DNA of 64,000 bases, taken from IMG/VR virus record IMGVR_UViG_3300025274_001348, positions 20,543 to 84,542 of that record. One strand, 5' to 3'. How positions within the stretch are numbered: the stretch's first letter is position 1; every line of letters starts with the position of its first letter. The notes under the pieces were generated by a model that searched no databases, was not told where the DNA came from, and worked only from the letters and a program-made list of their open reading frames with translations. Made by a program: the position numbers and the translations under genes. The stretch comes from a virus. This document shows positions 2,497 through 21,641 of this stretch, piece by piece.

Positions 2497-2540
2497 TATA
2501 GGGAGAGCATACGTAGCCGACCATAAAGTTTCGAGGATTT

Positions 2541-2774: not shown

Positions 2775-2784
2775 GGAAATAACC

Positions 2785-3102: not shown

Positions 3103-3147
3103 GTTATTCCTATAATATCTCGGCCCGACCACTATAAGGAGAAGAAC

Positions 3148-3605: not shown

Positions 3606-3610
3606 TTTAA

Positions 3611-3712: not shown

Positions 3713-3730
3713 ATTTTTGAGGTGGATCAG

Positions 3731-5793: not shown

Positions 5794-5971
5794 GTGTGAT
5801 GAAGGCATGGGCAGTTTCCATTGGGAGACAAAGGCTTTTATCTCTGAAGGAAATAAAGAAGTGTCTTTTGTTCAGACATGGTTTGACGATACGAAAGTTA
5901 TAAGCAAACAGAGTGTAATAATGACAACCGATGAGCTACGGAACATAATACGTCGAATAGAAAAGGCGTAA
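5774..5971 (+). CDS. Hypothetical protein
   Basis: Overlapping packed ORF. Confidence 0.5.
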   Translation: MGRLIYKCDEGMGSFHWETKAFISEGNKEVSFVQTWFDDTKVISKQSVIMTTDELRNIIRRIEKA

Positions 5972-5976
5972 TAAAT

Positions 5977-6048
5977 GCCCCCGTAGTTCAATGGTTAGAA
6001 CGCCGTTCTTATAAAGCGGTAACGATAGTTCGACTCTATCCGGGGGTA
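5977..6048 (+). tRNA. tRNA-Ile (anticodon UAU)
   Basis: Cloverleaf: GCCCCCG/CGGGGGT acceptor, GTTC/GAAC D-stem, CCGTT-CTTATAA-AGCGG anticodon arm, GATAG-TTCGACT-CTATC T-arm, discriminator A, CCA not encoded. Confidence 0.92.
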
Positions 6049-6109
6049 CTTAATCTGTTGGAAAGATGTCTCAGTAAAAACACCACGATTAAGATTAGCA
6101 GGATTTAAA

Positions 6110-7147: not shown

Positions 7148-7161
7148 GTGTTTAACAATAA

Positions 7162-7496
7162 GGGGGCGATTGGCTTCGACTGGTAGTGGAGATAATAGTT
7201 GCATGGAGTGGTTGGTCAGTTGGCCACTATAAAAGCTGACCAAAAAGTAATTGCCGAAAAGCAATTCGCGTTGGCTGCCTAGAGTAGTCAGGGGTTGCAC
7301 AAACCTTTTTATCCAATTGTGCTGACTCCGATAATCGGATAGGGATGGCTAACCCAAAAATAACGCCTGATGACCATAATGGTCTGATGATGGTCAATCC
7401 ATCTAGTTTTGTCTGCTGTGCGATAACAACAGACTAACCATGTAGAAGTTATTGTTTAAGCTATACAGGACGCGGGTTCGATTCCCGCCGCCTCCA
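7162..7496 (+). ncRNA. ssrA: tmRNA; tag (A)AEKQFALAA* at 7253-7282
   Basis: 5' GGGGGCG pairs with 3' CGCCTCC-A with a G3.U70 pair; TTCGAC near the 5' end; GCGGG-TTCGATT-CCCGC T-arm; tag ORF ends ALAA-stop. Confidence 0.95.
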
Positions 7497-7515
7497 TTTT
7501 ACATTGGGAGAAAGT

Positions 7516-8001
7516 ATGAATAAAACTATAGCGATTAGTGGCGGGTTTGATCCCGTACACATCGGTCATTTGAATATGATTAAAGGCGCTGCACAAGAAG
7601 GCAGTGTTATTGTTATTCTGAACAGTGACGCATGGCTACAACAAAAAAAGGGATATGTGTTTATGCCCTTTGAAGAAAGAAAGGCAATCTTAGAGGCATT
7701 TAGTGACGTTCACCATGTTATTGAGGTTGATGACTCTGACGGTACTGTATGTGAGGCTTTAGACCAACTACGCCCATGCTACTTCGGAAACGGGGGAGAT
7801 AGAGTCTCTGATAATGTTCCAGAAGTAAAGTTCTGTAAAAGATATGGCATCGGGCTGAGATGGAATCTTGGTGGGAATAAAATACAGAGCAGCAGCGAAT
7901 TAGTTACACATGCTAGGGATTATGACCACAAAGACAGAGAGTTAAAACAGCATAATGATCCAAGTGATCCGTTTGAATTAGAGTTGGGAGGTTCAGGTTG
8001 A
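7516..8001 (+). CDS. Cytidylyl/adenylyltransferase (HIGH superfamily, RfaE/TagD-like)
   Basis: SGGFDPVHIGH, LNSD, NGGDR, QSSS. Confidence 0.88.
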   Translation: MNKTIAISGGFDPVHIGHLNMIKGAAQEGSVIVILNSDAWLQQKKGYVFMPFEERKAILEAFSDVHHVIEVDDSDGTVCEALDQLRPCYFGNGGDRVSDNVPEVKFCKRYGIGLRWNLGGNKIQSSSELVTHARDYDHKDRELKQHNDPSDPFELELGGSG

Positions 8002-8195
8002 TGTCTAAGGAACGAAAGAAGCTACAGAAAAAAAAGAAGCGAGAAACGAGAGCTAAAGAGAAAGTCGTAAGAAAAAGAGGTGAGCTAAGAGAATCAAAAA
8101 GAATAGAGAAAGAGATTGAGAAAATTCAGTGGGAGGCTAGAGAAAGACTAACCCCCTATAGGAATCCTAAAAATGATAAATCAGAAGAACATTGA
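7998..8195 (+). CDS. Small highly basic hypothetical protein
   Basis: GGAGG SD; K/R/E-rich. Confidence 0.55.
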   Translation: MMSKERKKLQKKKKRETRAKEKVVRKRGELRESKRIEKEIEKIQWEARERLTPYRNPKNDKSEEH

Positions 8196-8601
8196 TAAGT
8201 CTGTCCAAATAGCCTGTCAACTTTTTCCTGAGCGATATGAGAATACACAAAGCTGTAAGGCTTTTCATTTTGCTTTTCTGTGGAAAAAGAACAGGCTTAT
8301 TTCTATTGGCCAGAACTATGCAGATAAGCCGTGCGCTAAAGCATTATACTTTGCGAAAAGATTTAATACAAAACGCCGCATTAAATATCCCTACATTCAC
8401 GCTGAGATCAATGCGGTACAAAAGGTGTGGGGAAAATCCCAGATAGATAATTCGTTCAGCTTGGTTTCTCTCAGAGTGTCTAGAGATTGTGTTTTAAGAA
8501 ACGCCAAGCCTTGTAAAGATTGTCAAACCGTATTGTCTGCTATCGGAGTAGGTGACATTTGGTGGTCGAATAAAATTGGAGAGGTTGTATGTGTGGAATA
8601 A
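8173..8601 (+). CDS. Zn-dependent nucleoside/nucleic-acid deaminase superfamily protein
   Basis: IHAEINA ... AKPCKDC motif. Confidence 0.8.
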   Translation: MINQKNIDKSVQIACQLFPERYENTQSCKAFHFAFLWKKNRLISIGQNYADKPCAKALYFAKRFNTKRRIKYPYIHAEINAVQKVWGKSQIDNSFSLVSLRVSRDCVLRNAKPCKDCQTVLSAIGVGDIWWSNKIGEVVCVE

Positions 8602-10373
8602 TAGGATGTATTGGAACAGATACTATAGACACAGTAATCACAGGCATGAGGCGAATGGAATACCGTGGCTATGATAGCTATGGATTCTGTGCCTTCAAAA
8701 ATGATTCCAAATTTCTCTACAAAGATGTTGGGCTGGTATCTAGAAATACAAATCTCAATGGCTATTCCCATGCACTAAGGGGCTATACTTCTGCAATAGG
8801 TCATACCAGATGGGCAACTCATGGCGAGGTCACAAAAGAAAATGCTCATCCACAGTATGACGAACAAGAAACTATATTTGTTGTTCACAATGGTACGGTA
8901 GATAATTCTCCATCTGATATGTTGGATACGCAGTATATAGTTCAGCAATTAAAACTACGCCTTACCAAACACTGGATGACCGTCAAAAGCCCAGACCGTT
9001 TTACAGAACCCCTGCGAGAACAAGTCCCACTAACACCAGAAGACTATCTTCTCACGGTCAATGCAGTAACACAAAAACTAGAAGGTGATAATGCATTCCT
9101 AGTGTCCTTCTCAAGCCTGCCAGATTATATTTTCTGTGCCACCAAAGGCTCTAAGTCACTGTTAGTTACAGATAATGGACACGTTAGCAGCGATTCGTAT
9201 GCGATATCGGGCAAGGCGAAAGAGGCTCGAAGAATTAAGAACTCTGTGGTGTGCTTATCTTCCAAGGGGATAATATCTAGTGTGAAACCGTTTAGCTCAT
9301 CTGCGAAGATAGAAACAGTGCCAGAGCAACAGGAACATAAATTATCTGAGCCTCACTTCATGCTGCAAGAGATTAAAGAACAATACTCTCTTATGGAGGA
9401 TATGGGTAATTATCCTATGTACCATCCTCCGTTTCGGCCAGAGAGATTAAACCTGATTGGGTGTGGAAGTAGCTACTATGCAGCTATGTGGGCAAAGGTT
9501 TGGTTTGAGACGATTGCAAGGATTCCCACTACCGTAACTTATGGAAGTGAAGCCTTCAATCTCACTCTTAAAGACCCAAACGCAACCGACATCTACATAA
9601 GCCAAAGCGGAGAAACTAAAGATATTATTCGTGCATCCCGTGATGCTAAGTCAGACAGCGTTTTTGTAGTTACAAACAATATTAATTCCCACCTAGGAAA
9701 TTCTTTCTTTCACACAATTGATATTGGCGCAAACATTGAACGAGGAGTTGCCGCTACTAAAACCTTTACTCTAACCTGTTATGCGCTATGGGAGCTTGCT
9801 TGGCACTGGTCATCTGAATCTGAAGAAAACGAACTTAAAGTGTTAGACTACCAAGACGCCCTAGCCGAAGGAATTAAGCATGTGCTTGATCGTGAACAAA
9901 CCGTAGCGACTATTGCAAAGATGATAGCCCAGTATGACAACGCTCTATTCTTAGGTAGACATTGGGACTACCCAATAGCCTTAGAGGGCGCACTTAAGTT
10001 AAAGGAAGTTAGTTACATTCACGCAGAGGGTATGCCAGCAGCAGAAATGAAGCATGGACCCATCGCCTTGGTGGATGAAAAGACTCCAAGCATATTTACT
10101 GTTACCGGCTCTTTCGACATAGACACAATTATTTCTAACATGAGAGAGGTTAAATCCAGAAACGGAAAAGTGTTTGCTGTTGTTAGTCCTGTAAACTATG
10201 ACAGAGTAAAAGAAGTTGCAGACTGGACTTTCCGAACATGCGATATTCACGGTGTGGCAATGCAGCCACTTGTAGCAAATGTTGTCCTACAGTTACTTGC
10301 GTATCACGTAGCTGTTGAAAAAGGACTTAACCCTGACCGCCCCCGTAACCTAGCCAAGAGTGTAACCGTATAA
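8589..10373 (+). CDS. glmS: Glutamine--fructose-6-phosphate aminotransferase
   Basis: MCGIIG, EYRGYDS, GHTRWATHG, HNG, SQSGET, ALEGALKLKEVSYIHAEG, PRNLAKSVTV. Confidence 0.96.
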   Translation: MCGIIGCIGTDTIDTVITGMRRMEYRGYDSYGFCAFKNDSKFLYKDVGLVSRNTNLNGYSHALRGYTSAIGHTRWATHGEVTKENAHPQYDEQETIFVVHNGTVDNSPSDMLDTQYIVQQLKLRLTKHWMTVKSPDRFTEPLREQVPLTPEDYLLTVNAVTQKLEGDNAFLVSFSSLPDYIFCATKGSKSLLVTDNGHVSSDSYAISGKAKEARRIKNSVVCLSSKGIISSVKPFSSSAKIETVPEQQEHKLSEPHFMLQEIKEQYSLMEDMGNYPMYHPPFRPERLNLIGCGSSYYAAMWAKVWFETIARIPTTVTYGSEAFNLTLKDPNATDIYISQSGETKDIIRASRDAKSDSVFVVTNNINSHLGNSFFHTIDIGANIERGVAATKTFTLTCYALWELAWHWSSESEENELKVLDYQDALAEGIKHVLDREQTVATIAKMIAQYDNALFLGRHWDYPIALEGALKLKEVSYIHAEGMPAAEMKHGPIALVDEKTPSIFTVTGSFDIDTIISNMREVKSRNGKVFAVVSPVNYDRVKEVADWTFRTCDIHGVAMQPLVANVVLQLLAYHVAVEKGLNPDRPRNLAKSVTV

Positions 10374-10630
10374 TGCCTAAATACTATGTAGAGACCGGAA
10401 CCCTGCAAGAAATAGTGGAATCTAATACTCCTTTTGATGCCTGCGTGAGGGCTGTACGCAGGGCTACTAATGAATATCTGGAGGGTGGAGAGAATGTTAC
10501 CTTGGGGGAATCGTTTATTGTTAACCAAAAGGGTTTCCCCTCCAATCGTGAACCCTTCGCTCTTGATACTGCAAATGACACTATGGTGTCTACGAGTCGT
10601 ATTATAGAGGCTCTTGAAGATGGATCTTAA
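10373..10630 (+). CDS. Hypothetical protein
   Basis: TAATG coupling to glmS. Confidence 0.6.
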   Translation: MPKYYVETGTLQEIVESNTPFDACVRAVRRATNEYLEGGENVTLGESFIVNQKGFPSNREPFALDTANDTMVSTSRIIEALEDGS

Positions 10631-10766
10631 CGGCAAAAGAGGCAAATTTGAAAGATGGCTAGATCTTCATAATCATAAGATGGAATTGATGAGAACATCG
10701 TTTTCATTTGTTGCAGCAATCACTGGTATATTGGTATTATTAAAGGTGTTCGGATTTATGGACTAA
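10620..10766 (+). CDS. Small membrane protein (48 aa)
   Basis: MDLNGKRGKFERWLD...SFSFVAAITGILVLLKVFGFMD; one C-terminal TM helix. Confidence 0.5.
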   Translation: MDLNGKRGKFERWLDLHNHKMELMRTSFSFVAAITGILVLLKVFGFMD

Positions 10767-10767
10767 A

Positions 10768-10853
10768 GCCCTGTTGCAGCCGACATGAGCCTTCTAAGCT
10801 CATCCCCTGAATGTGTCGGATGGAGGGGTAGGGTTCGATTCCCCAGCGGGGTA
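10768..10853 (+). tRNA. Atypical D-arm-less tRNA-like RNA, anticodon UCU (Arg)
   Basis: GCCCTGTTG/CAGCGGGGT acceptor, ATGAGC-CTTCTAA-GCTCAT anticodon arm, CCCCT/AGGGG long variable arm, GGG-TTCGATT-CCC T-arm; only 8 nt where the D-arm should be. Confidence 0.7.
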
Positions 10854-10873
10854 CTCATATAAGGAGAGTTAAT

Positions 10874-11290
10874 ATGACAATGGGTGGAAGCGAAAAGAGA
10901 TTAATAGTAGACTGCGACGGAGTTATAGCCGATAAAGACCACGGTGGTATATATGCGAATGCTGGCCCCTTACAGCACGGTATCGACCAAGTAAATAAAC
11001 TGTATGACATGGGATATGAAATCGTACTATATACAGCGAGATATGGAGATCGAGAAAAGGGTAACATAAATAGACAATATGAACGTGGATATGTAGAATG
11101 GGTGAAGTGGCTGAAGGATCACGGTGTTAAATATCACCACGCATTTATGGGCAAGATTGCTGGAGTTCTCTATATAGACGATAAGGCTGCTAGAGTCAAC
11201 AGTGATAGTGAAGACGGGTGGGAAGACGTGTGGAAGGAAATAGATGACCTTACAGACAGAGATAGATACGGGAGGAAAATCGTGTCATGA
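10874..11290 (+). CDS. HAD-superfamily phosphatase (capsule-biosynthesis phosphatase-like)
   Basis: VDCDGVI, YTAR, GK...YIDDKA. Confidence 0.85.
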   Translation: MTMGGSEKRLIVDCDGVIADKDHGGIYANAGPLQHGIDQVNKLYDMGYEIVLYTARYGDREKGNINRQYERGYVEWVKWLKDHGVKYHHAFMGKIAGVLYIDDKAARVNSDSEDGWEDVWKEIDDLTDRDRYGRKIVS

Positions 11291-11787
11291 AACTAGATCA
11301 TATTGCCTACAGGGTAAAAGGTAGACATGAGGCAGCAGAGTTCTTTTATTCGATGTTCGGTTACGAGTTTGGAACCGAATTTGATGTAGAATTTGATGAT
11401 GGCTCCAAGGCCGAATGTTATGTCCTCCTTCCACCAATAAATCCATCTATTTTAGTTCGTGAAGGACCGGAGATATTTATATCTGACGGAAGTCCCGGCT
11501 CAATTGTCGGGGATTGGGTTGAGGCTAGGGGTGGTATTGGTGGTATACATCATATAGCTTATAAGGTAAGAGATATAGACGCTGTTGTTGATGAATGGAA
11601 GAAACAAGGCATTGTCGAGTTTCTTACAGACGATGTAATCGAATGTCCAGACGACGACCTTCGGCAAATTTTTACTAAACCCTTGGAATACGTAGGTGGA
11701 ATAATTATCGAACTGATTGAAAGAGGATCTAAAGGATTCTGTGAAAAGTCAGTTAAGGACTTAATGAATAGCACGAAAGGATTATAA
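11287..11787 (+). CDS. VOC/glyoxalase-fold protein resembling the catalytic C-domain of HPPD
   Basis: LDHIA, GIHHIAY, RQIFTKP, IELIER, KGF (His-His-Glu triad pattern). Confidence 0.75.
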   Translation: MKLDHIAYRVKGRHEAAEFFYSMFGYEFGTEFDVEFDDGSKAECYVLLPPINPSILVREGPEIFISDGSPGSIVGDWVEARGGIGGIHHIAYKVRDIDAVVDEWKKQGIVEFLTDDVIECPDDDLRQIFTKPLEYVGGIIIELIERGSKGFCEKSVKDLMNSTKGL

Positions 11788-13271
11788 TGGGAACTTATAC
11801 GATTACTCAAGGATTACACTATGTCAATGGTCAATGGACCGGAGGAAGCCAACAGGCGGCGTTTGACAGCAAGAATCCAGCAACAAAAGAAATTATAGGA
11901 TCTTTTCCTCAAGCCACTCAGTCAGAAGTTGACTCCACATACCATTTTGCAAGAGATTCTTTTTACGGGTGGAGGGAGTATGGCAGGGTGCGACGAGCCG
12001 AATATTTCCTCAAGCTAGCTAGCCTGATCGAAAAAAGAAAAGATGAAATTGCAAAAATGATCAGCATCGAAACGGGTAAGGTATACAACGAGTCTGTTGC
12101 AGAAGTGAACGAAGCTCTACACATGGCACAATATGCATTTAGTACAGGGAGGATGCCTTATGGTGAAGCAATCGCGTCAGAACTACCTGAAAAAGATGCT
12201 TACATGCTTCGCAAACCAAAGGGTGTGGTCGCAATTGTCGCTCCTTTTAACTTTCCTTTTGCTATTGGTGGTTTTTGGTGTGCCGCACCTGCTTTGGTTG
12301 AGGGAAATACTGTCATACTAAAACCAAGTGAAGATACCCCTTTAGTGGGACAATTAACGGCAGAACTATATCACGAAGCTGGATTTCCACCGGGAGTATT
12401 CAATCTACTTCACGGTGACGGCGAAGTTGGAGATATGTTGATTCATCAGGATGTAGACCATGTATGTTTTACGGGAAGCGCCGATGTGGGCATGCACGTC
12501 AGAAAAGTTTGCGCTGAAAGTTGGCACAAGTCTTGTTCGTGTGAGATGGGTAGTAAGTCTGCTGTAATCATCCACGAAGATGCCAACTATGATATGGCTA
12601 TGGCTGCTTGTCTTGCTAGTGCATATAAACTTTCTGGACAAAGATGTGTGTCTGCCGGTAGGCTAATTGTTCATAGATCTTTATATCACCAGTTTGCAGA
12701 AGAATTTGCTGCTAGAAGTGCAATGCTAAAGACTGGCGATCCGTTTAATGAAAACACTTTCTACGGTCCACTGATAAATCGACAGGGGTTGGACAAGGTT
12801 ATGCACTTCAATAGCATTGTATTTAACGACAAGGACGTAGACGTGCTGCTTGCCGGGGTTAGAATTGTTGAAGACGGATTATTTATGACTCCTACGGTTT
12901 ATAAAACCGAATGGAAAGATGCTCCGTACCTAAAGAATGAAGTGTTTGGGCCTCATGTATCTATTATCCCCTATGATAGAGTTTCAGAAGCTATTAATAT
13001 TTATAACGATACTGATTACGGATTAGCTCTTGGAGTAGTAACCGAAAACTTTAAAGTTGCCAGAAGGGTTCGTAATGAATGTGATTTTGGTCTTGGTTAT
13101 TGGAATGGTGGTAGTATTGCGGCTGAGTCTCATCTTGGATTCGGAGGAGTAAAGAAATCTGGAAATGGGCAACCTAGCGCTGCTCGTACTTTTAGATCTG
13201 TTACTCACGAAGTTGCTTGGACCGTCAATCATGGAGATACTCTTAACTTTCCTCAAGGCATGAACTCTTGA
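11787..13271 (+). CDS. Aldehyde dehydrogenase (candidate P6C/P5C semialdehyde dehydrogenase)
   Basis: PFNFP, KPSEDTP, FTGS, EMGSK, GQRC, EVFGP, FGGVKKSG. Confidence 0.93.
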   Translation: MGTYTITQGLHYVNGQWTGGSQQAAFDSKNPATKEIIGSFPQATQSEVDSTYHFARDSFYGWREYGRVRRAEYFLKLASLIEKRKDEIAKMISIETGKVYNESVAEVNEALHMAQYAFSTGRMPYGEAIASELPEKDAYMLRKPKGVVAIVAPFNFPFAIGGFWCAAPALVEGNTVILKPSEDTPLVGQLTAELYHEAGFPPGVFNLLHGDGEVGDMLIHQDVDHVCFTGSADVGMHVRKVCAESWHKSCSCEMGSKSAVIIHEDANYDMAMAACLASAYKLSGQRCVSAGRLIVHRSLYHQFAEEFAARSAMLKTGDPFNENTFYGPLINRQGLDKVMHFNSIVFNDKDVDVLLAGVRIVEDGLFMTPTVYKTEWKDAPYLKNEVFGPHVSIIPYDRVSEAINIYNDTDYGLALGVVTENFKVARRVRNECDFGLGYWNGGSIAAESHLGFGGVKKSGNGQPSAARTFRSVTHEVAWTVNHGDTLNFPQGMNS

Positions 13272-13272
13272 A

Positions 13273-14076
13273 ATGAATAATATTCTTGTATGTCCACCCA
13301 CCTTTTATGGCGTTAACTATGAAATTAACGCTTGGATGGATGCAAGTATGGATGTTGATTACAAGAAAGCAGATTTACAATGGCTGAAGATGTGCGACAG
13401 GCTTATAAGGTCCGGGGGGTATCTCAAATATATAGATCCTCATTCAGATTATCCAGACATGGTCTTTACTGCTAACGCAGGTTTTGTGCATGGTAAAACT
13501 GTGATATTGTCTAACAATAGACATAAAGAGCGTCAAGGAGAAAGCCCGTTATTTAAGCAATGGTTTCTAGATCACGGGTATAGGGTCATAGAGCTTCCTA
13601 AACACATCTTTTTTGAAGGAGCAGCCGACGCCATATTTATAAACGATGTTTTGTTTATGGGATATGGTTTTAGAACAAGCAAAGAGGCTCATTCAATAAT
13701 TGCAAACGTATTTAATGTCGAATATGTTTCCTGTGAATTAGTTGATCCACATTTTTATCATTTAGACACCTGTTTTTTCCATATGAAGGATAGGGTCATT
13801 TATTACAGAGAAGCCTTCTCTCATAAATCAATTGAAGGAGCCATAGAAAAATTGATAGAAACATGTCTATTTACGCAGGTGCCATTAGACATACTAAACG
13901 TGGCTGAATCTCAAGCTAAACAATTTATATGTAACAGTATAGAAATTGATAATAACATCGTCACTCCTTCTGTTGATTGTGACGATACGTTTGGTAACCA
14001 TAGTGTATTCATGTGTGATATGTCAGAATTTATGAAGGCTGGAGGAGCAACAAAATGTCTAACTCTCAAGCTATAA
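13273..14076 (+). CDS. Amidinotransferase/DDAH-superfamily guanidino hydrolase
   Basis: YEINAWM, PDMVFTANAG, FEGAAD, FYHLDTCF, GGATKCLTL (Cys-His-Asp triad). Confidence 0.9.
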   Translation: MNNILVCPPTFYGVNYEINAWMDASMDVDYKKADLQWLKMCDRLIRSGGYLKYIDPHSDYPDMVFTANAGFVHGKTVILSNNRHKERQGESPLFKQWFLDHGYRVIELPKHIFFEGAADAIFINDVLFMGYGFRTSKEAHSIIANVFNVEYVSCELVDPHFYHLDTCFFHMKDRVIYYREAFSHKSIEGAIEKLIETCLFTQVPLDILNVAESQAKQFICNSIEIDNNIVTPSVDCDDTFGNHSVFMCDMSEFMKAGGATKCLTLKL

Positions 14077-15284
14077 ATACCTTGTCTCAGTACATTCTGA
14101 CCGATGGTTTTCATGTTGTTGTTGACCTAGATAAAAGTCAAGGTTCTTGGATAGTAGATGCTGAAAATGGAAAGAAGTATTTAGACTGTTATTCCCAATT
14201 TGCTAGTCAACCTCTAGGCTGGAATCATCCCGCTCTAATCAACGCCCAAGAGGAACTAGGGCGCGTAGCTATGCACAAGTTGGCAAATAGTGACATGTAT
14301 TCAAAGCCCTATGTTGAATTCGTAGAAAAATTTGCGGACATCACAAGAGATTTTAGACACTACTTTTTTGTTGATGGTGGGACACTAGCGGTAGAAAATG
14401 CATTAAAAGCTGCTTTTGATTGGAAGGCGCAAAAACTAGGATATACAATAGACATGAGTCCCAGCCTAAATGAAGCTCTTGCCAATAAACTTGATGTTAT
14501 ACATTTTAGCAATGCTTTTCACGGAAGAAGCGGATATTCAATGTCTATTACAAATACAGATCCTAATAAAACCAGATGGTTTCCATCCTTTAATTGGACC
14601 CCTGTTAATGACCCGTCTGATATAGAGCATAAAATGCACGGTGATGTAGCGGCAATAATTATAGAGCCGATACAAGGTGAAGGAGGAGATATACACTTTA
14701 ACAGAGCGGCGTTCCGGCACCTTAGAAAAATGGCATATAAGTATGACGCAATGTTAATATTTGACGAAGTTCAAACCGGGTTAGGACTTACAGGAAAAAT
14801 GTGGGGGTACAAACATTTTAGTGGCGTAATGCCTGATATGATTTGTTTTGGTAAGAAGACTCAGGTGTGTGGCTTTTGTTGCACAAATAGAATCAATGAA
14901 GTTCCCGACAACGTATTCACCGTCTCCTCCAGAATTAACTCTACATGGGGAGGAAATATTGTGGACATGGTTAGATTCTGCCATATCATAGATGCAATAG
15001 AAGAAAATAATCTTGTAGAGAATGCAAAAACTATAGGTGAATACCTCCTCGGAAAGTTGGTTATTGTAGATGGCATTTCAAACGTCAGAGGCAGAGGCTT
15101 AATGATAGCCTTTGATTTGTCTAACGAATCAGAACGAGACAAAATGATGGAATTGCTATCCGAAAATATGTTGGTTCTAAAATGTGGCAAGAAATCTATA
15201 AGACTAAGACCTCATCTTACATTCTCAAAAGAGGATGCTGATTTTGCCCATTCCTACATAGAGAAAGCGGCGGGGGAACTATGA
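14055..15284 (+). CDS. lat: L-lysine 6-aminotransferase (class III PLP)
   Basis: FFVDGGTLAVENALKAAFDWK, AFHGRSGY, EPIQGEGGD, DEVQTG, FGKKTQVCG, RINSTWGG, all characteristic of Lat. Confidence 0.9.
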   Translation: MSNSQAINTLSQYILTDGFHVVVDLDKSQGSWIVDAENGKKYLDCYSQFASQPLGWNHPALINAQEELGRVAMHKLANSDMYSKPYVEFVEKFADITRDFRHYFFVDGGTLAVENALKAAFDWKAQKLGYTIDMSPSLNEALANKLDVIHFSNAFHGRSGYSMSITNTDPNKTRWFPSFNWTPVNDPSDIEHKMHGDVAAIIIEPIQGEGGDIHFNRAAFRHLRKMAYKYDAMLIFDEVQTGLGLTGKMWGYKHFSGVMPDMICFGKKTQVCGFCCTNRINEVPDNVFTVSSRINSTWGGNIVDMVRFCHIIDAIEENNLVENAKTIGEYLLGKLVIVDGISNVRGRGLMIAFDLSNESERDKMMELLSENMLVLKCGKKSIRLRPHLTFSKEDADFAHSYIEKAAGEL

Positions 15285-16123
15285 ACATTCAAACCGTGGG
15301 AATCATTGGTCAGGGATTTGTAGGAAGCGCATTGGGTTGCGCCTTTGCTCAACATTATAAGGTGTATACTTACGATAAAATGCTTACAGATCTATCCACA
15401 CATAAAAGCGTGCATGGGCTGTCCAGAGATTGCGATTTGCTTTTTGTCTGTGTCCCAACCCCAATGAGGGAAGATGGGTCTTGCGATATCTCAATAGTCA
15501 AAGAAGTTGTTCAAGAAGCCTGTAGCACCGGAAGAAGAAACATAATTGCCATTAAATCCACGGTCCCTCCTAATACTACTAAGACGTTACAAGAGCTATG
15601 TCAAGATTCTCAAATAGTTTTTAACCCGGAGTTTCTACTTGAAAGAAACGCTGAAGAAGATTTTCGCAACACTAGTCGAGTCATTTTAGGTGGCCCTAGA
15701 CCAGCAACAACTAGGCTGAAACAATTCTATTCAAAAATCTTTCCTAATGCCCATATCATAAAAACCGACTCCACTATAGCAGAGATGGTTAAGTATCTTA
15801 CTAATTCATTTCTTGCGGTTAAAGTTTCATTCGCTAATGAAATGTACGCCATCTGCAAAAATCTAGATATAGACTACGACAAGGTAGCTGAATATGCCTT
15901 GCACGATGACCGTCTAGGAAATACACACTGGGCCGTTCCCGGTCCCGATGGTCACTATGGATTTGGAGGAAGCTGTTTTCCAAAAGATATAAATGCGTTA
16001 ATGCATCTCGCACAAACTCTGTGTATAAAAGCCAACACAATAGAAGGAGCTTGGAACACTAATCTCATGGCTAGGCCAGAGAAGGACTGGGAAACTCTCA
16101 AAGGTAGGGCAGTAATCGAGTAA
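15281..16123 (+). CDS. UDP-glucose/GDP-mannose dehydrogenase family (no C-terminal domain)
   Basis: GIIGQGFVG, CVPTP, KSTVPP, FNPEFL, AEMVKY, GFGGSCFPKD; only 280 aa. Confidence 0.88.
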   Translation: MNIQTVGIIGQGFVGSALGCAFAQHYKVYTYDKMLTDLSTHKSVHGLSRDCDLLFVCVPTPMREDGSCDISIVKEVVQEACSTGRRNIIAIKSTVPPNTTKTLQELCQDSQIVFNPEFLLERNAEEDFRNTSRVILGGPRPATTRLKQFYSKIFPNAHIIKTDSTIAEMVKYLTNSFLAVKVSFANEMYAICKNLDIDYDKVAEYALHDDRLGNTHWAVPGPDGHYGFGGSCFPKDINALMHLAQTLCIKANTIEGAWNTNLMARPEKDWETLKGRAVIE

Positions 16124-16153
16124 CGTGAAGCAAAAAGGTAGAAAGGTTTACAA

Positions 16154-16645
16154 ATGCCTACAAGCGTCGAAGAAGCCAACAGTATTATGGAAATAATGGA
16201 TGATTTTCTGGATGCAGATGACGCCAGAGAATTAACAGCAAGACTTGAGCATGAAATTGGTCAAAGTACTGATAATGATTCACTAAAAACTAGTCTTGAA
16301 ATGCTGAAGGAGCTTTACAAGGATAGAACCGGAAGTAGAAAAAAAGACCTTTATAAGAAGACGTGTCTTTATTCGTTAGTAGCTTTCCATTCCTTTGTTA
16401 TCACGGTAAATATTATTGCCTTTTTTGTTTTACCGTTCCTGTATCCGTTGTTAGTATGGATGCCTCTCAACAGTTTTATCCTTACAGTTACATTCACTAG
16501 GGAGATATGTCCGTTAACCAGATTAGAGAACTATATCAGAACCTCTCTTGATATGCCAAGAATAGGTGGGTTTCTTGGTCACTATGGAGTTAGGCCGGTG
16601 AAAAACTTTTTAAAAAATAGGCCAAACGGGCCAAAGAGTTCTTGA
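16154..16645 (+). CDS. Membrane protein (C-terminal CPLTRLEN motif, DUF2784-like)
   Basis: Two hydrophobic helices followed by ICPLTRLENYIR. Confidence 0.6.
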   Translation: MPTSVEEANSIMEIMDDFLDADDARELTARLEHEIGQSTDNDSLKTSLEMLKELYKDRTGSRKKDLYKKTCLYSLVAFHSFVITVNIIAFFVLPFLYPLLVWMPLNSFILTVTFTREICPLTRLENYIRTSLDMPRIGGFLGHYGVRPVKNFLKNRPNGPKSS

Positions 16646-16670
16646 CTTTCCCACAAACCTGTGCTAAAAT
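16642..16670 (+). promoter_or_regulatory. Sigma70-type (early) promoter for the rII operon
   Basis: TTGACT-17 nt-TAAAAT with extended TG. Confidence 0.75.
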
Positions 16671-16719
16671 TGATTAGAGAGTTTGAAAAAATCGTTTTCT
16701 TTGGTTGAGGGTTGATGAA

Positions 16720-18921
16720 ATGAAACTGCAAAAGAACGCTAACCTAATTGAAAGGTCGCAGAAGTTCGAGGAAACGAACTACACGATTGAGGCTACAGCA
16801 AAAGCCTTCTCCATTCTCTCGGATGGACTGTACGCGAACAAGATAAGGGCAGTAGTTCGTGAGCTTAGCACAAACGCTTACGACTCACACATCGACGCTG
16901 GCAAGCCTGATGTCCCCTTCGAGGTTCACTTGCCTAATTCAATGGAACCCCATTTTAGCATTCGGGATTTTGGTACAGGTCTTTCGCATGACGATTGCAT
17001 GAACCTGTATACCACCTACTTTCGGTCCAACCGGACTGACAGTAATAAGGCTGTTGGATGTATGGGTCTTGGTAGTAAGTCTCCATTCGCTTATAACGAT
17101 AGCTTTACCGTTGAATCTTTCTTTAATGGCAAGCATCGTACCTACAGTGCTTATAAGAATGAGCAAGAGGAGCCAGTATTTGCTTTGCTCCATGAAAAGG
17201 ATACCAGCGAACCTAACGGTTTGAGGGTTAGCTTCCCTGTCCAGTCTCATGCTTATGATAATGACTTTGACAGGTTTAAAGATGAGGCTGGAGAACTTTA
17301 CGCCTACTTCAAAGTCCAGCCCAAGGTCACTGGCCAAAGTATCGAAGTTGAACCAGTTAACTATATCCTTGAAGGTGATGGTTGGGCTGTTCATGACGGT
17401 AGTGGTCCCAATTACCACTGTAGTGCTATCATGGGACAAGTCTGTTACGAGATTGACCAAGATGCTATGGGTGATTACCCTCAAGAGATCAAGCCAGTAT
17501 TGATGTCAAAGATGGATCTGTTCTTCGATATTGGTGAAATTAATATCACTCCTTCCCGTGAATCTCTTAGCTATAATGAATTCACCCAGAAGGCTATCAT
17601 CAAAAAGTGTCAAGAGGTTCTGGAACAGGCTGCTGGTATTGTTGAGGAGTCAATTAAGAACGCTGAAACACTCTGGGATGCTAGGAAGATGTTTGTTGAT
17701 ATTGTTGATTCCGATCAAAAGTTTGGTAGAATCGGTCAAAGTATCAATAAGGAAAATGCTGAATGGCAAGGTCAGAAGCTATTTTCTGAGAGTACCACAT
17801 GGGGATATCATATTCCCACTGGAGGTATTGATGGCCTAACTGTAGTTATGTATTACAGAGATGGGTGGAAAGAGGCAGTTCAGCGAGACAGCAAAACTGG
17901 CATCGCTCCTAGAGGCAATTATGTTATCTATGTGGATGATCTTAAACGAGGGGCTATTGGCAGAACCAAGCAACTCGTTAAGGATAATACTACCCACAAC
18001 AGGTGGGGAAGTTCTGACAACTCCTTTAGGGTCTACCTGATTAAAGGTAGCGACGAAGCTATCCAACGGGTTAAGGATAAGTTGGGATGTAAAGATAGCG
18101 ATATTCTTCTTGCATCTGATCTACCTAGACCGGATACTAGTGGTTCTTACTCTGATACAGAGGCTAGGACTAAGATTGCTGTTTGGAATGGTGGTACTTA
18201 TGGCTGGAGAGATGCTAACAACTGGGATGATGTAACTATAGACCTCAAGGAAGGTGGTTACTTTGTAGAGATCAATAGGTACAAGTTCAAAAACCCGAAA
18301 CGACCATACGGTTCTTTCTCCTCAAGGACTGGTACTTTTCAGACCATCATTAATAAGTGTGACAAACTTGGCATCGACATTGATAAAATCTATGGTGTTA
18401 AGTCAGCAGTCATGAAGACCAAGAAGTTTCGTGATCTAGAGAAAGCAGGTGTTTGGGTTAACATCTTTGACAAAGTTGAAGAAATTGTTGAAGATCATCT
18501 TGACCATAAAGGCTACCGCACTATAATTGGAATGAGAGAAGGTCGCTCTGACCTGTTCCGTTATGGTAATCACAATCTGGATTACGATGAGGTCTTGGCA
18601 TTCGCTAAGTTGACCGAGACAGATAATGATCTCAAGAACTTCATGAAGCTCTATGAGGAAGAACAAGTAGAAGAGAGTGAAGAATATAGAGCAGTTCTAA
18701 CCTTGTTGAACTGTGCGGAAATGAAAGTAGAGAAAATCAGTAACGGTATTAAGAAGGAGGATTTTGACAAAGCGGAGAAGGCATTATGGGAGAAGTATCC
18801 CCTTGTCAAAGCCGTGTGCCATAACTTTGCTTCAAATCATTTCGATAAGCCGAGTGAAGCTATCAAAGAGTTGGTACGATACGTAGACTTGAAGGAGAAG
18901 GAAGCCAATGAAGCGAATTAA
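16720..18921 (+). CDS. rIIA: rIIA-like protein (N-terminal GHKL/Hsp90-like ATPase domain)
   Basis: AFSILSDGLYANKIRAVVRELSTNAYDSH, IRDFGTGLS, GCMGLGSKSPFAY, ITPSRESLSY. Confidence 0.88.
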   Translation: MKLQKNANLIERSQKFEETNYTIEATAKAFSILSDGLYANKIRAVVRELSTNAYDSHIDAGKPDVPFEVHLPNSMEPHFSIRDFGTGLSHDDCMNLYTTYFRSNRTDSNKAVGCMGLGSKSPFAYNDSFTVESFFNGKHRTYSAYKNEQEEPVFALLHEKDTSEPNGLRVSFPVQSHAYDNDFDRFKDEAGELYAYFKVQPKVTGQSIEVEPVNYILEGDGWAVHDGSGPNYHCSAIMGQVCYEIDQDAMGDYPQEIKPVLMSKMDLFFDIGEINITPSRESLSYNEFTQKAIIKKCQEVLEQAAGIVEESIKNAETLWDARKMFVDIVDSDQKFGRIGQSINKENAEWQGQKLFSESTTWGYHIPTGGIDGLTVVMYYRDGWKEAVQRDSKTGIAPRGNYVIYVDDLKRGAIGRTKQLVKDNTTHNRWGSSDNSFRVYLIKGSDEAIQRVKDKLGCKDSDILLASDLPRPDTSGSYSDTEARTKIAVWNGGTYGWRDANNWDDVTIDLKEGGYFVEINRYKFKNPKRPYGSFSSRTGTFQTIINKCDKLGIDIDKIYGVKSAVMKTKKFRDLEKAGVWVNIFDKVEEIVEDHLDHKGYRTIIGMREGRSDLFRYGNHNLDYDEVLAFAKLTETDNDLKNFMKLYEEEQVEESEEYRAVLTLLNCAEMKVEKISNGIKKEDFDKAEKALWEKYPLVKAVCHNFASNHFDKPSEAIKELVRYVDLKEKEANEAN

Positions 18922-21400: not shown

Positions 21401-21641
21401 GCAGAAAAGGATTATCAAACCGCCAGAGCCTTATAAATATCCTACGAGGTATGGCAGTCATCTATCAATGGTCGATGAAGAAAAGACCGGCGAACTGAAC
21501 AAGGAAAATAAAGTTGTGATTGAGGATGAACATGGTTACTATATAACGGATGAGAGTAGACTCGACAATGGACTAGCAGACCCGAAAAGATATAATTCCA
21601 ACCGTTTAAAATGGTATGAAAAGGAGACACCTAATGTTTGA
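21384..21641 (+). CDS. Hypothetical protein
   Basis: Packed ORF with GGAG SD. Confidence 0.6.
   Translation: MVRQLRQKRIIKPPEPYKYPTRYGSHLSMVDEEKTGELNKENKVVIEDEHGYYITDESRLDNGLADPKRYNSNRLKWYEKETPNV

What the first reader, a model, noticed from the sequence alone, without database searches (positions are those of the whole stretch)
11287..15284. Compact phage-encoded lysine/arginine catabolic cassette (dioxygenase-like, ALDH, amidino-hydrolase, Lat)
Seen: four abutting or overlapping genes with intact catalytic motifs, embedded in phage DNA. Established: Lat plus P6C dehydrogenase convert Lys to 2-aminoadipate (as in actinomycete lat/pcd). DDAH-fold dihydrolases (ArgZ-N/AgrE type) convert Arg to ornithine + 2 NH3 + CO2. 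Class III omega-aminotransferase plus ALDH convert Orn to Glu. HglS, an HPPD-mechanism VOC enzyme, converts 2-oxoadipate to 2-hydroxyglutarate. Inference: the phage carries a near-complete route that strips nitrogen from the two most N-rich amino acids and yields Glu/NH3 (for its GlmS and nucleotide synthesis) plus NADH and TCA carbon. I am not aware of such a multi-gene amino-acid catabolic operon described in a phage; this is the best candidate for a new system in the window.
Basis: partly seen in the sequence, partly recalled or inferred. Interest (0 to 1): 0.85.

Follow-up and report, generated by a model that had tools for sequence, protein, structure and literature searches.

The report
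Phage arginine/lysine nitrogen-stripping gene block
An uncultured marine phage carries a tightly packed, conserved block of enzyme genes that most likely turns the nitrogen-rich amino acid arginine (and perhaps lysine) into ammonia and glutamate during infection, a kind of viral metabolic module for which I found no description in print.

Summary
The four genes are real, intact and lie in phage DNA. They are a 166-aa VOC protein, an ALDH, an ArgZ-type arginine dihydrolase and a LAT-family aminotransferase. All are translationally coupled on the + strand, 1.4 kb upstream of rIIA.

The conserved unit is three genes, not four. ALDH-dihydrolase-aminotransferase keeps its order in 21 of 21 related viral contigs, two of them in a different neighbourhood. 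The VOC gene is missing from 3 of 20 assessable contigs and occurs without the block in one relative.

Each enzyme also occurs alone in other viral contigs: LAT 20, ArgZ-like 59, ALDH 4.

In 80 cellular loci the ArgZ-type gene sits beside an ornithine-consuming enzyme in 61 (cyclodeaminase 60, ornithine aminotransferase 1). None of the 80 has the phage arrangement.

My reading: arginine goes to ornithine + 2 NH3 + CO2, then to glutamate semialdehyde, then to glutamate. Lysine to 2-aminoadipate is a possible side activity.

The ALDH is not the piperideine-6-carboxylate dehydrogenase type. All substrates are inferred.

I found no paper describing the module. This scan has already reported the same cassette on other phage DNA (e1-5661184, e1-6054560 and others).

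The parts
11787..13271 (+). Aldehyde dehydrogenase (494 aa), first gene of the conserved three-gene core. Proposed glutamate-5-semialdehyde (and/or 2-aminoadipate semialdehyde) dehydrogenase.
   Evidence: PF00171 426.8 bits. No NCBIfam equivalog cut-off is reached: best HpaE 318, GucD 315, GSA-DH PRK03137 306.5, P6C-DH 275.5. The catalytic Asn/Glu/Cys motifs are kept in 22 of 22. It lies directly upstream of the dihydrolase in 21 of 21 relatives.
13273..14076 (+). Stand-alone ArgZ-N/AgrE-N-type arginine dihydrolase homologue (267 aa).
   Evidence: NF052232 233.7 bits, below the cut-off of 450. Full-length match to Sll1336 (6jv0, E 2.6e-54) and Alr4995 (6lrf). FTANAG, YHLDTC and KCLTL are conserved. 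The best cellular relatives are only 42-43% identical.
14055..15284 (+). LAT-family class III (PLP) omega-aminotransferase (409 aa), a shortened cassette-type variant. Proposed ornithine (and/or lysine) omega-aminotransferase.
   Evidence: TIGR03251 471.6 bits, below the cut-off of 520.8. M. tuberculosis LAT 2cin 339.8 bits; the residues aligned to R170, E243, D271, K300 and T330 are identical. It lacks 20 to 31 residues (31 against the cellular LAT) that solo viral LATs and the cellular LAT possess. It overlaps the dihydrolase gene by 22 nt.
11287..11787 (+). Small VOC-superfamily metalloprotein (166 aa), resembling MMCE and the HPPD C-terminal domain. A neighbour of the core; its membership in the pathway is not shown.
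   Evidence: Glyoxalase_4 39.2 bits. Profile against PDB: MMCE 1jc4 E 1.3e-12, HPPD C-domain E 6e-12. AF2 model pLDDT 88.5. Foldseek: MMCE E 6e-11, HPPD/HMS TMq 0.74-0.76. H5, H88, H89, E142 and Q127 are invariant in 20 homologues. Absent in L002, L039 and L017; present without the core in L127.
10874..11290 (+). HAD-type phosphatase (138 aa), translationally coupled upstream neighbour. Probably not part of the amino-acid block.
   Evidence: TIGR01689 48.8 bits, below cut-off. phrog_1238. 4-nt overlap with the VOC gene. Found within the held DNA in 10 of 21 relatives (counted again).
15281..16123 (+). Truncated nucleotide-sugar-dehydrogenase-like protein (280 aa: N-terminal and central domains, no C-terminal domain), translationally coupled downstream neighbour.
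   Evidence: PF03721 and PF00984 only. TIGR03026 199.5 bits, above the cut-off of 189.8. Follows LAT in 17 of 21 relatives. Follows a 57%-identical ALDH directly in L147, which has no dihydrolase or LAT.
16705..18921 (+). rIIA-like phage gene, the nearest phage hallmark.
   Evidence: phrog_612 E 5.6e-127 over 6-723.

Best explanation
The core is a three-gene viral metabolic block: ALDH, ArgZ-type arginine dihydrolase and a LAT-family aminotransferase. It works as a non-orthologous version of the arginine-to-glutamate routes known in cells.

Proposed steps:
1. The dihydrolase hydrolyses L-arginine to L-ornithine + 2 NH3 + CO2.
2. The PLP aminotransferase moves the delta-amino group of ornithine to 2-oxoglutarate. 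This gives glutamate plus glutamate-5-semialdehyde (in equilibrium with P5C).
3. The ALDH oxidises the semialdehyde to glutamate with NAD(P)+.

Net reaction: arginine + 2-oxoglutarate gives 2 glutamate + 2 NH3 + CO2 + NAD(P)H. All four nitrogens of arginine become usable for phage nucleotide and protein synthesis in a nitrogen-poor ocean.

Because the aminotransferase is of the LAT family, lysine to 2-aminoadipate semialdehyde to 2-aminoadipate is a likely side or second activity.

Shown: the genes, their families, conserved catalytic residues, conserved order, and independent DNA support. Inferred: every substrate, the direction of flux and the benefit to the phage. The upstream VOC protein is a metal enzyme of unknown substrate, and I do not count it as part of the pathway.
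For: (1) Adjacency and order ALDH-dihydrolase-LAT hold in 21 of 21 related viral contigs at 49-84% protein identity. Two of them (L002, L039) sit between glycosyltransferase genes instead of the HAD/VOC...UGDH' setting. The triple therefore moves as a unit.

(2) The dihydrolase matches ArgZ/AgrE over its full length and keeps the Cys, the His and the TAN Asn.

(3) In cellular genomes the ArgZ-type gene is habitually coupled to an ornithine-consuming enzyme. Of 80 loci, 60 have a homologue of the nickel-pincer-dependent ornithine cyclodeaminase next to it or fused to it, and 5 have a PutA-like gene nearby. One (L082) has a bona fide ornithine aminotransferase 12 nt downstream (TIGR01885 543 bits, cut-off 378.4). 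In the phage block the aminotransferase plus ALDH occupy that place, and together they give the same end product as OCD plus PutA.

(4) The product of each proposed step is the substrate class of the next enzyme: guanidino, then omega-amine, then aldehyde, then acid.

(5) The ALDH is not the P6C-dehydrogenase type that partners a true LAT in cells (275.5 against 764.3 bits on NF050084).

(6) Cassette-type LATs share a deletion of 20 to 31 residues (31 against the cellular LAT) that is absent from three solo viral LATs and from the cellular LAT. This is compatible with altered specificity.

(7) All catalytic motifs are kept in 22 of 22 copies.

(8) The DNA recurs in 18 runs, including a viral-fraction metagenome, with bridging contigs.
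Against: - The aminotransferase is by sequence a LAT (471.6 bits on TIGR03251, against 154.6 on Orn_aminotrans TIGR01885). All M. tuberculosis LAT residues that I could map are kept. Activity on ornithine is not shown.
- The dihydrolase is below the NCBIfam equivalog cut-off (233.7 against 450) and also scores 202.6 on the Mtb-type dimethylargininase model.
- The ALDH has no subfamily assignment.
- Each gene stands alone in other viral contigs within the DNA held: LAT in 20, ArgZ-like in 59 (0 of 59 with LAT or ALDH), ALDH in 4.
- In 5 large LAT-bearing viral records, whole-record searches found the ALDH in 1, the VOC protein in 1 and the dihydrolase in 0. None of the enzymes therefore needs the others.
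- In L147 a related ALDH is followed by the UGDH-like gene without dihydrolase or LAT. The ALDH may belong with that gene instead.
- 9 relatives carry a gene nearest to L-lysine 6-dehydrogenase just downstream, which points to lysine.
- There is no expression data.
Confidence: 0.5

Rival explanations
1. This is a lysine route: LAT makes 2-aminoadipate semialdehyde, the ALDH makes 2-aminoadipate, and the VOC protein acts like HglS on 2-oxoadipate. The dihydrolase is a parallel arginine branch feeding the same aminotransferase and ALDH.
For: - LAT family is the best hit by far, and the M. tuberculosis LAT residues are kept.
- 9 of 21 relatives have a Sacchrp_dh-family gene downstream. Its nearest solved structure is P. 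horikoshii L-lysine 6-dehydrogenase 3abi (E 2.6e-17). The identity of 3ABI was confirmed in passages of PMC10413350.
- The VOC protein keeps an HPPD-like 2-His-1-Glu set and an HPPD-like C-terminal helix, so it could be an intramolecular 2-oxo-acid oxygenase.
- The ESM Atlas lists an HGLS (PF07063) cluster at score 0.91 with 163 shared features. This is a lead only.
- The uncultured huge phage LR756511.1 holds LAT (59.8%), VOC (46.9%) and an ALDH stretch (67.9% nt), but no dihydrolase hit.
Against: - The ALDH is not P6C-dehydrogenase type (compared with L054).
- The VOC protein has no PF07063 hit and is dispensable: absent in 3 of 20 assessable contigs, and alone in L127.
- No 2-aminoadipate aminotransferase or 2-hydroxyglutarate step is present.
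- The lysine-dehydrogenase-like gene is absent from this 84.5-kb record.
- The model leaves the invariant position of the dihydrolase between ALDH and LAT unexplained.
Confidence: 0.2
2. This is an island of independent auxiliary genes. The four enzymes are neighbours because accessory genes accumulate in this part of the genome. Each works separately with host enzymes. For example, the dihydrolase could supply ornithine for polyamines or ammonia, and the LAT could make glutamate from lysine. There is no dedicated pathway.
For: - The same region also holds GlmS, a cytidylyltransferase, a deaminase, a HAD phosphatase, a UGDH-like gene, GMP reductase, class I aldolase, an acyl-CoA dehydrogenase and a 3-hydroxyacyl-CoA dehydrogenase.
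- Every component occurs alone in other viruses.
- Whole-record co-occurrence is low.
- Evolution inside the block is mosaic. The window's LAT is 64-68% identical to all 21 relatives, even where the flanks are 84-93% identical (L006).
Against: The triple is kept contiguous and in one order in 21 of 21 contigs, and in two different neighbourhoods. The genes overlap or abut. The chemistry of the three enzymes is serially compatible. Cells couple ArgZ-type genes to ornithine consumers in 61 of 80 loci.
Confidence: 0.2
3. The block serves a biosynthetic or modification pathway together with its sugar-type neighbours (HAD phosphatase, UGDH-like protein, GlmS, cytidylyltransferase). For example, it could make an amino- or guanidino-modified sugar or polyamine-like compound for the virion, the DNA or the host surface.
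For: The genes are translationally coupled to the HAD and UGDH-like genes. In L002 and L039 the triple lies between glycosyltransferase genes. ALDH and the UGDH-like gene are adjacent in L147.
Against: The closest characterised relatives of the dihydrolase and the aminotransferase are catabolic enzymes acting on free amino acids. No sugar aminotransferase (DegT-type) signature was found. The triple occurs without HAD or UGDH' in L002 and L039.
Confidence: 0.05
4. The block is a host fragment joined to phage DNA by mis-assembly.
For: None found. The best cellular relatives of all four genes are distant.
Against: GC content and skew are continuous. The same block with phage flanks appears in 21 other viral contigs. 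Contigs of independent runs bridge the ALDH/dihydrolase/LAT and the dihydrolase/LAT/UGDH' junctions. No cellular genome among 80 loci has the arrangement, and cellular dihydrolases are at most 43% identical.
Confidence: 0.01

Closest known systems
Cyanobacterial ArgZ (Sll1336) / AgrE (Alr4995) arginine dihydrolase routes, and the split form found here in cellular genomes (ArgZ-type gene + nickel-pincer-dependent ornithine cyclodeaminase + PutA, e.g. locus L068)
   Same: The first enzyme is a homologue over its full length (E 2.6e-54) with the same Cys/His/Asn motifs. The dihydrolase is genetically coupled to the enzymes that consume ornithine. The end product is glutamate. That ArgZ makes ornithine + 2 NH3 + CO2 is recalled knowledge; the ArgZ and AgrE structure papers were not held.
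   Different: There is no cyclodeaminase domain or gene: 0 of 22 cassette copies, against 60 of 80 cellular loci. Ornithine would go through an aminotransferase and a soluble ALDH, not through proline and PutA. The protein is below the NCBIfam equivalog cut-off and at most 43% identical to any cellular representative. The block is carried by a virus.
Arginase (Roc) pathway of Bacillus subtilis: RocF arginase, RocD ornithine aminotransferase, RocA P5C dehydrogenase (recalled, not tested against those proteins)
   Same: It uses the same three-step logic: arginine to ornithine to glutamate semialdehyde to glutamate, with a class III aminotransferase and an ALDH.
   Different: Step 1 uses a DDAH-fold dihydrolase that releases ammonia, not urea. 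The aminotransferase is LAT family, not OAT family (154.6 bits on TIGR01885 against a cut-off of 378.4). The ALDH does not reach the GSA-dehydrogenase cut-offs (306.5 against 648).
Bacterial lat-pcd pair (L-lysine 6-transaminase + piperideine-6-carboxylate dehydrogenase), e.g. Verrucomicrobiales locus L054
   Same: A LAT-family aminotransferase lies next to an ALDH. The M. tuberculosis LAT residues that I mapped are conserved.
   Different: The phage LAT scores 471.6 against a cut-off of 520.8 and lacks 20 to 31 residues (31 against the cellular LAT). The phage ALDH scores 275.5 on the P6C-DH model, where the L054 partner scores 764.3. In L054 the ArgZ-type gene is on the other strand and is not in the operon.
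   Same: It has the VOC fold with a conserved His/His/Glu set. Residues 70-166 align with the HPPD catalytic C-domain, including its C-terminal helix. The whole length aligns with MMCE.
   Different: It is a single domain of 166 aa (HPPD has about 350-390 aa and two domains). It is far below the HPPD and MMCE cut-offs (31.5 of 277; 37.4 of 114.95). It has no DUF1338 hit. Its substrate is unknown.

Membership tests
ArgZ/AgrE-type arginine dihydrolase (NCBIfam NF052232) | Full-length homology to the dihydrolase domain of Sll1336/Alr4995 | tested here: met
   phmmer E 2.6e-54, residues 4-266 against 28-289 of 6jv0. NF052232 is matched over 4-266 of 266 profile positions.
ArgZ/AgrE-type arginine dihydrolase (NCBIfam NF052232) | Score above the curated equivalog cut-off | tested here: not met
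   233.7 bits against a cut-off of 450. The Mtb-type dimethylargininase model NF045659 scores 202.6 against 300.
ArgZ/AgrE-type arginine dihydrolase (NCBIfam NF052232) | Catalytic Cys and His, and the Asn of the TAN motif | tested here: met
   YHLDTC and KCL(T/A)L in 22 of 22, F(T/V)AN in 22 of 22. The Asn is the position changed to Ser in PDB variant 6juz. Its role in the second hydrolysis is recalled.
ArgZ/AgrE-type arginine dihydrolase (NCBIfam NF052232) | Arginine is converted to ornithine + 2 NH3 + CO2 | not testable with these tools
   This needs an enzyme assay.
L-lysine 6-transaminase family (TIGR03251) | Score above the curated cut-off | tested here: not met
   471.6 against 520.8. 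Five other cassette copies score 471-480 and five solo viral LATs 417-514. A cellular LAT (L054) scores 552.2.
L-lysine 6-transaminase family (TIGR03251) | PLP lysine and the residues aligned to M. tuberculosis LAT R170, E243, D271, K300, T330 | tested here: met
   Identical in the alignment to 2cin. The numbering was counted from that alignment; the roles of the residues are recalled. The motifs are kept in 22 of 22.
L-lysine 6-transaminase family (TIGR03251) | Partner ALDH of P6C-dehydrogenase type (NF050084) | tested here: not met
   The phage ALDH scores 275.5 against a cut-off of 730. The L054 partner scores 764.3.
L-lysine 6-transaminase family (TIGR03251) | Preference for lysine over ornithine | not testable with these tools
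   This needs kinetics. A clade-specific deletion of 20 to 31 residues (31 against the cellular LAT) is the only structural difference seen.
Ornithine aminotransferase (TIGR01885) | Score above the curated cut-off | tested here: not met
   154.6 against 378.4. The claim is functional analogy, not membership.
Aldehyde dehydrogenase superfamily (PF00171) | Domain over its full length, with catalytic Cys, Glu and Asn | tested here: met
   426.8 bits over 17-472. The motifs are aligned to 7kqv and kept in 22 of 22.
Glutamate-5-semialdehyde (P5C) dehydrogenase (PRK03137 / TIGR01237) | Score above the curated cut-off | tested here: not met
   306.5 against 648 and 283.4 against 659.65. No ALDH subfamily is favoured.
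HglS / DUF1338 2-oxoadipate dioxygenase-decarboxylase (PF07063) | Match to the family profile | tested here: not met
   No PF07063 hit at E<=0.01. No HglS or YdcJ entry appears among the Foldseek matches listed. There is only an ESM Atlas lead at 0.91.
4-hydroxyphenylpyruvate dioxygenase (TIGR01263) | Two-domain architecture and score above the cut-off | tested here: not met
   166 aa. 31.5 bits against 277, matching only profile positions 304-342.
4-hydroxyphenylpyruvate dioxygenase (TIGR01263) | His/His/Glu metal set in the C-terminal domain | tested here: inconclusive
   H5, H88/H89 and E142 are invariant in 20 homologues and lie in the stretches aligned to the HPPD C-domain. The same positions also fit MMCE ligands. 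Metal and substrate are unknown.
Viral auxiliary metabolic gene cluster | Metabolic genes of cellular type on a virus genome, flanked by virus genes and conserved among related viruses | tested here: met
   IMG/VR virus record. rIIA, polymerase, RNR and helicase in the window. 21 related viral contigs. Present in a viral-fraction metagenome.

The most novel reading that the evidence does not exclude
One lineage of marine phages has rebuilt arginine catabolism from parts. It kept the ArgZ-type dihydrolase. It replaced the cellular partners (the nickel-pincer-dependent ornithine cyclodeaminase and membrane-linked PutA) with a shortened LAT-derived enzyme that has shifted to ornithine, plus a new soluble ALDH. 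The result is a cofactor-light route, arginine + 2-oxoglutarate to 2 glutamate + 2 NH3. It moves between phage genomes as a three-gene unit and fuels virus production under nitrogen limitation.
Probability: 0.3. Interest if true: 0.7.

Novelty: new variant of a known kind. Interest (0 to 1): 0.55.

Why it matters
Auxiliary metabolic genes of ocean viruses are mostly known as single genes or as steps of photosynthesis, carbon, nucleotide, phosphate and polyamine metabolism.

A conserved and mobile three-enzyme block that would release all four nitrogens of arginine as ammonia and glutamate would be a concrete, testable case of a virus re-routing host nitrogen. It would bear on nitrogen budgets of infected cells in nitrogen-poor seas.

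It would also show an ArgZ-type dihydrolase paired with an aminotransferase and an ALDH in place of the cyclodeaminase found beside it in 60 of 80 cellular loci. And it might reveal a LAT-family enzyme that works on ornithine.

All three enzymes are small and soluble-looking, so they can be expressed and assayed directly.

Tried and rejected
- Promoter and terminator scan of 7000-17000. 29 promoter-like sites against 23.5 +/- 4.7 in shuffles, and 11 terminator-like sites against 6.7 +/- 3.2. No usable operon boundary.
- Expression. No RNA holder listed. Nothing can be said on transcription.
- ALDH subfamily. NCBIfam, PDB and the 120 best database homologues, all named at most "aldehyde dehydrogenase (NAD+)", did not resolve the substrate.
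- LAT cut-off comparison. Five cassette copies (471-480 bits) and five solo viral copies (417-514) do not separate. Only the deletion does.
- Single-protein scan of viral contigs with the dihydrolase found nothing. The alignment-based scan found 86 relatives, of which 80 were kept.
- Whole-record co-occurrence in five large LAT-bearing viral records was low: ALDH 1 of 5, VOC 1 of 5, dihydrolase 0 of 5. Four of the five records are 42-68% complete.
- Cultured phages. Of 50,697 GenBank phage records, a LAT at high identity occurs only in the uncultured LR756511.1; the other 62 records with a match are under 60% identical, and those listed are at most 31%. Dihydrolase-like genes (25-35%) in Ralstonia phage RsoM2USA, Xanthomonas phage phiXF1 and six Bacteroides phages have no aminotransferase or ALDH neighbour.
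- I considered a link of the block to the acyl-CoA dehydrogenase and 3-hydroxyacyl-CoA dehydrogenase genes upstream (lysine via glutaryl-CoA). The acyl-CoA dehydrogenase has no glutaryl-CoA signature (106 bits against 470), so I dropped the idea.
- ESM Atlas hit to an HGLS cluster (0.91, 163 shared features) is kept as a lead only.

Literature. Searches found no paper on a phage LAT/ArgZ/ALDH block.
- In the main text of the ocean AMG catalogue PMC11360552, "lysine" occurs 0 times and "arginine" only in other contexts (passages).
- PMC10732071 says only that large marine phages have a larger share of AMGs in "lysine degradation" (one passage).
- The ArgZ and AgrE structure papers (PMC7029115, PMC7186175) are not held. 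What I say on ArgZ chemistry and the role of the Asn is recalled.
- That Flavobacterium LAT also accepts ornithine is recalled and is not used as evidence.

Full report
**What is there**

The window is bases 20543-84542 of an 84.5-kb IMG/VR virus record estimated 56% complete. Essentially all ORFs of 100 aa or more that look like genes are on the + strand.

Phage hallmarks in the window are:
- an rIIA-like gene at 16705-18921 (phrog_612, E 5.6e-127);
- a ribonucleotide reductase;
- a DnaB-like helicase;
- a DNA polymerase split into 55761-57668 and 58540-60162. Its best annotated GenBank matches are called DNA polymerase III alpha, at no more than 35% identity. The phage therefore has no close cultured relative.

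At the coordinates given there are four ORFs:

| Gene | Coordinates | Length | Main hits |
|---|---|---|---|
| VOC | 11287-11787 | 166 aa | Glyoxalase_4, 39.2 bits |
| ALDH | 11787-13271 | 494 aa | PF00171, 426.8 bits |
| DDAH-fold protein | 13273-14076 | 267 aa | NF052232 arginine dihydrolase 233.7 bits; NF052231 ArgZ 234.5; Mtb-type dimethylargininase 202.6 |
| Class III aminotransferase | 14055-15284 | 409 aa | TIGR03251 LAT_fam, 471.6 bits |

(Family hits.)

The genes overlap or abut: a 1-nt overlap, a 1-nt gap and a 22-nt overlap. The coupling goes on to a HAD phosphatase gene upstream (4-nt overlap) and to a truncated nucleotide-sugar-dehydrogenase-like gene downstream (4-nt overlap).

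**The individual enzymes**

*Dihydrolase.* The 267-aa protein aligns over its whole length with the dihydrolase domain of Synechocystis Sll1336 (ArgZ; 6jv0, E 2.6e-54) and Anabaena Alr4995 (AgrE; 6lrf). It keeps FTANAG, YHLDTCF and GGA.KCLTL. The Asn of that first motif is the residue changed to Ser in the PDB variant 6juz. The protein stays below the NCBIfam equivalog cut-off (450).

*Aminotransferase.* It matches M. tuberculosis LAT (2cin, 339.8 bits) far better than GABA or ornithine aminotransferases (about 153 and 105-130 bits). It has the same residues at the positions I counted as R170, E243, D271, K300 and T330. It lies just under the LAT cut-off (520.8).

*ALDH.* It has the catalytic Asn, Glu and Cys (alignment to 7kqv) but no subfamily. 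HpaE, GucD, BADH, GSA-dehydrogenase, SSADH and AstD models all score 290-318 bits, and the P6C dehydrogenase model scores 275.5.

*VOC protein.* It is a single VOC domain pair.
- A profile of 20 homologues hits methylmalonyl-CoA epimerase over the full length (E 1.3e-12). It hits the catalytic C-terminal domain of HPPDs in two stretches that include the HPPD C-terminal helix (E 6e-12).
- An AlphaFold model (pLDDT 88.5) gives MMCE the best Foldseek E-values and HPPD/hydroxymandelate synthase the highest query TM-scores (0.74-0.76).
- H5, H88, H89, Q127 and E142 are invariant.
- There is no DUF1338/HglS hit.

**Is it real phage DNA?**

GC content and skew run through the block without a break. 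The 5.25-kb stretch is held by 20 DNA runs, 18 of them with at least half of its sampled words. Five are marked as possible sources.

Contigs of run X6 tile 10274-16231 with no differences; one piece covers 12240-14218. A contig of X14, a viral-fraction metagenome of a different year and study, covers 13313-15981 with one difference. Mis-assembly of a host fragment is therefore very unlikely.

**Synteny**

A scan of IMG/VR with the LAT protein gave 41 loci.
- 21 contigs have ALDH-dihydrolase-LAT adjacent, in the same order and on the same strand. Identities to the window are 61-84% (ALDH), 49-73% (dihydrolase) and 62-68% (LAT).
- The other 20 loci have LAT at 49-58% identity, some in records of 250-530 kb. 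None of the other three genes lies in the DNA held, up to 8 kb either side.

The VOC gene precedes the ALDH in 17 of 20 assessable contigs. L008 is cut, and L002, L039 and L017 lack it. In L127 the VOC gene stands in the same backbone without the triple.

In L002 and L039 the triple lies between glycosyltransferase genes. The unit that is conserved and that moves is thus the three genes, not four.

All catalytic motifs are kept in the window and all relatives (22 of 22; VOC 18 of 18).

An alignment-based scan with the dihydrolase found 86 viral relatives, of which 80 were kept. They comprise the same 21 contigs plus 59 others at 30-45% identity. None of the 59 has a LAT or ALDH match nearby. 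One (L187) has a cyclodeaminase, and two (L172, L174) have a weak proline-dehydrogenase-like match next to the dihydrolase.

The ALDH scan added four contigs with the ALDH alone at 57-58%. One of them (L147) is followed directly by the UGDH-like gene.

In five large LAT-bearing records, whole-record searches found the ALDH in 1, the VOC protein in 1 and the dihydrolase in 0.

**What cells do**

The scan of one genome per prokaryote species gave 591 relatives of the dihydrolase. The best 80 are only 36-43% identical. They come from Verrucomicrobiota, Planctomycetota, Cyanobacteria, Nitrospirota, Chloroflexota and others.

None of the 80 has the phage arrangement. But 60 of the 80 have a homologue of the nickel-pincer-dependent ornithine cyclodeaminase beside or fused to the dihydrolase, and 5 have a PutA-like gene near. 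The query for the cyclodeaminase was L068, which scores 524.9 bits on TIGR00300.

In the gammaproteobacterial locus L082 a bona fide ornithine aminotransferase (TIGR01885 543 bits, cut-off 378.4) follows the dihydrolase after 12 nt.

The single cellular locus with a LAT nearby (L054) has a canonical pair. Its LAT scores 552.2 bits and its P6C dehydrogenase 764.3 bits, both above cut-off. The pair is on the opposite strand from the dihydrolase.

Two conclusions follow. In cells an ArgZ-type gene is normally tied to the enzyme that uses its product, ornithine. And a true LAT is partnered by a P6C-type ALDH, which the phage ALDH is not.

**Most likely mechanism**

I read the triple as arginine to ornithine (+ 2 NH3 + CO2), then to glutamate semialdehyde (+ glutamate from 2-oxoglutarate), then to glutamate. 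The LAT-derived enzyme and the ALDH take the place of cyclodeaminase/PutA or of OAT.

The cassette-type LATs share a deletion of 20 to 31 residues (31 against the cellular LAT). It corresponds to about residues 200-229 of M. tuberculosis LAT. It is absent from three solo viral LATs and from the L054 LAT. This could go with a change of substrate, but that is conjecture.

Lysine remains a plausible second substrate. Nine relatives carry, just downstream of the block, a saccharopine-dehydrogenase-family gene. These are L002, L003, L004, L007, L012, L017, L023, L028 and L041. The nearest solved structure to this gene is L-lysine 6-dehydrogenase 3abi (E 2.6e-17). That gene is absent from this record.

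Confidence in the arginine-to-glutamate reading is 0.5.

**Evolution inside the block**

The window's nearest relative is L006, with HAD 93%, VOC 89%, ALDH 84% and UGDH-like 91% identity. Yet the dihydrolase is 73% and the LAT only 67% identical.

The window's LAT is 64-68% identical to all 21 relatives, while the LAT of L006 is 77-83% identical to 12 of its 20 other relatives and 62-69% to the rest. The LAT allele of this phage looks exchanged or fast-evolving. This fits a mosaic, mobile module.

**Novelty**

In 50,697 GenBank phage records, a LAT at high identity occurs only in the uncultured huge phage LR756511.1. The VOC protein occurs only in LR756511.1 and LR756504.1. Distant dihydrolase-like genes occur in eight cultured phages, without an aminotransferase or ALDH neighbour.

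Six literature searches found no description of such a block. One paper mentions only a higher share of "lysine degradation" AMGs in large marine phages (passage).

Earlier agents of this scan reported the same cassette on other phage genomes, there between the two polymerase halves. They reached a similar reading. Those are unchecked AI notes and I do not count them as support.

I rate this a new variant of a known kind: a viral auxiliary metabolic gene cluster that is a functional analogue of the ArgZ and arginase routes. Interest is 0.55. All substrates remain to be shown at the bench.

Noticed in passing
window 15281-16123: A 280-aa nucleotide-sugar-dehydrogenase-like protein. It has the N-terminal and central domains and the GGSCFPKD Cys motif, but no C-terminal (UDP-binding) domain. 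It is conserved after LAT in 17 of 21 relatives and follows a related ALDH directly in L147. Its substrate is unknown.
   Followed up: partly
L002 9302-10390, L004 10715-11806, L017 7406-8479 and six more relatives: A saccharopine-dehydrogenase-family gene of about 360 aa lies just downstream of the block in 9 relatives. Its nearest solved structure is L-lysine 6-dehydrogenase 3abi (E 2.6e-17). It is absent from this window and from the whole 84.5-kb record.
   Followed up: partly
L043-L122 (cellular loci): 60 of 80 stand-alone or fused ArgZ-type genes in prokaryote genomes have a nickel-pincer-dependent ornithine cyclodeaminase homologue adjacent. One (L082) has an ornithine aminotransferase instead. 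L068, L076, L086 and L104 also have a PutA-like gene.
   Followed up: yes
window 14055-15284 compared with L006, L042: The window's LAT is 64-68% identical to all 21 relatives, although the flanking genes are 84-93% identical to L006. This looks like an exchanged or fast-evolving allele inside the block.
   Followed up: partly
L019 12262-13527: A glutamate dehydrogenase gene (ELFV_dehydrog) lies 3 kb downstream of a solo LAT in a 533-kb viral record. ORFs of 420-421 aa at the same relative place in L025 and L029 were not scanned.
   Followed up: partly
L172 and L174, 8824-9570 (minus strand): There is a weak proline-dehydrogenase-like match (27-29% over about 300 aa, E 3e-11 and 2e-7) next to a solo viral ArgZ-like gene that is 45% identical to the window's.
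   Followed up: no
window 57-7147: Further metabolic genes lie upstream: a long acyl-CoA dehydrogenase (57-1685), GMP reductase (3680-4819, above the NF003470 cut-off), class I fructose-bisphosphate aldolase (4819-5793, above cut-off) and a FadB-C-terminal-like 3-hydroxyacyl-CoA dehydrogenase (6110-7147).
   Followed up: partly
window 7504-10373: A cytidylyltransferase-like gene, a deaminase-like gene and a full-length GlmS (451.9 bits, above cut-off) precede the block. They are syntenic in L042.
   Followed up: no
window 55761-57668 and 58540-60162: The DNA polymerase is split into two ORFs about 870 bp apart. The best annotated GenBank matches are called DNA polymerase III alpha. Earlier notes of this scan place the same cassette between the polymerase halves in other phages. 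Here it lies 40 kb away.
   Followed up: no
window 21616-22872: A DUF1501 protein (231 bits), a family usually found in bacteria, is encoded in the phage.
   Followed up: no
window 11287-11787 (family): The VOC family is large and mostly viral. It has 1103 homologues in the metagenome protein collection. ESM Atlas clusters of 80-315 members are labelled 89-100% viruses.
   Followed up: partly
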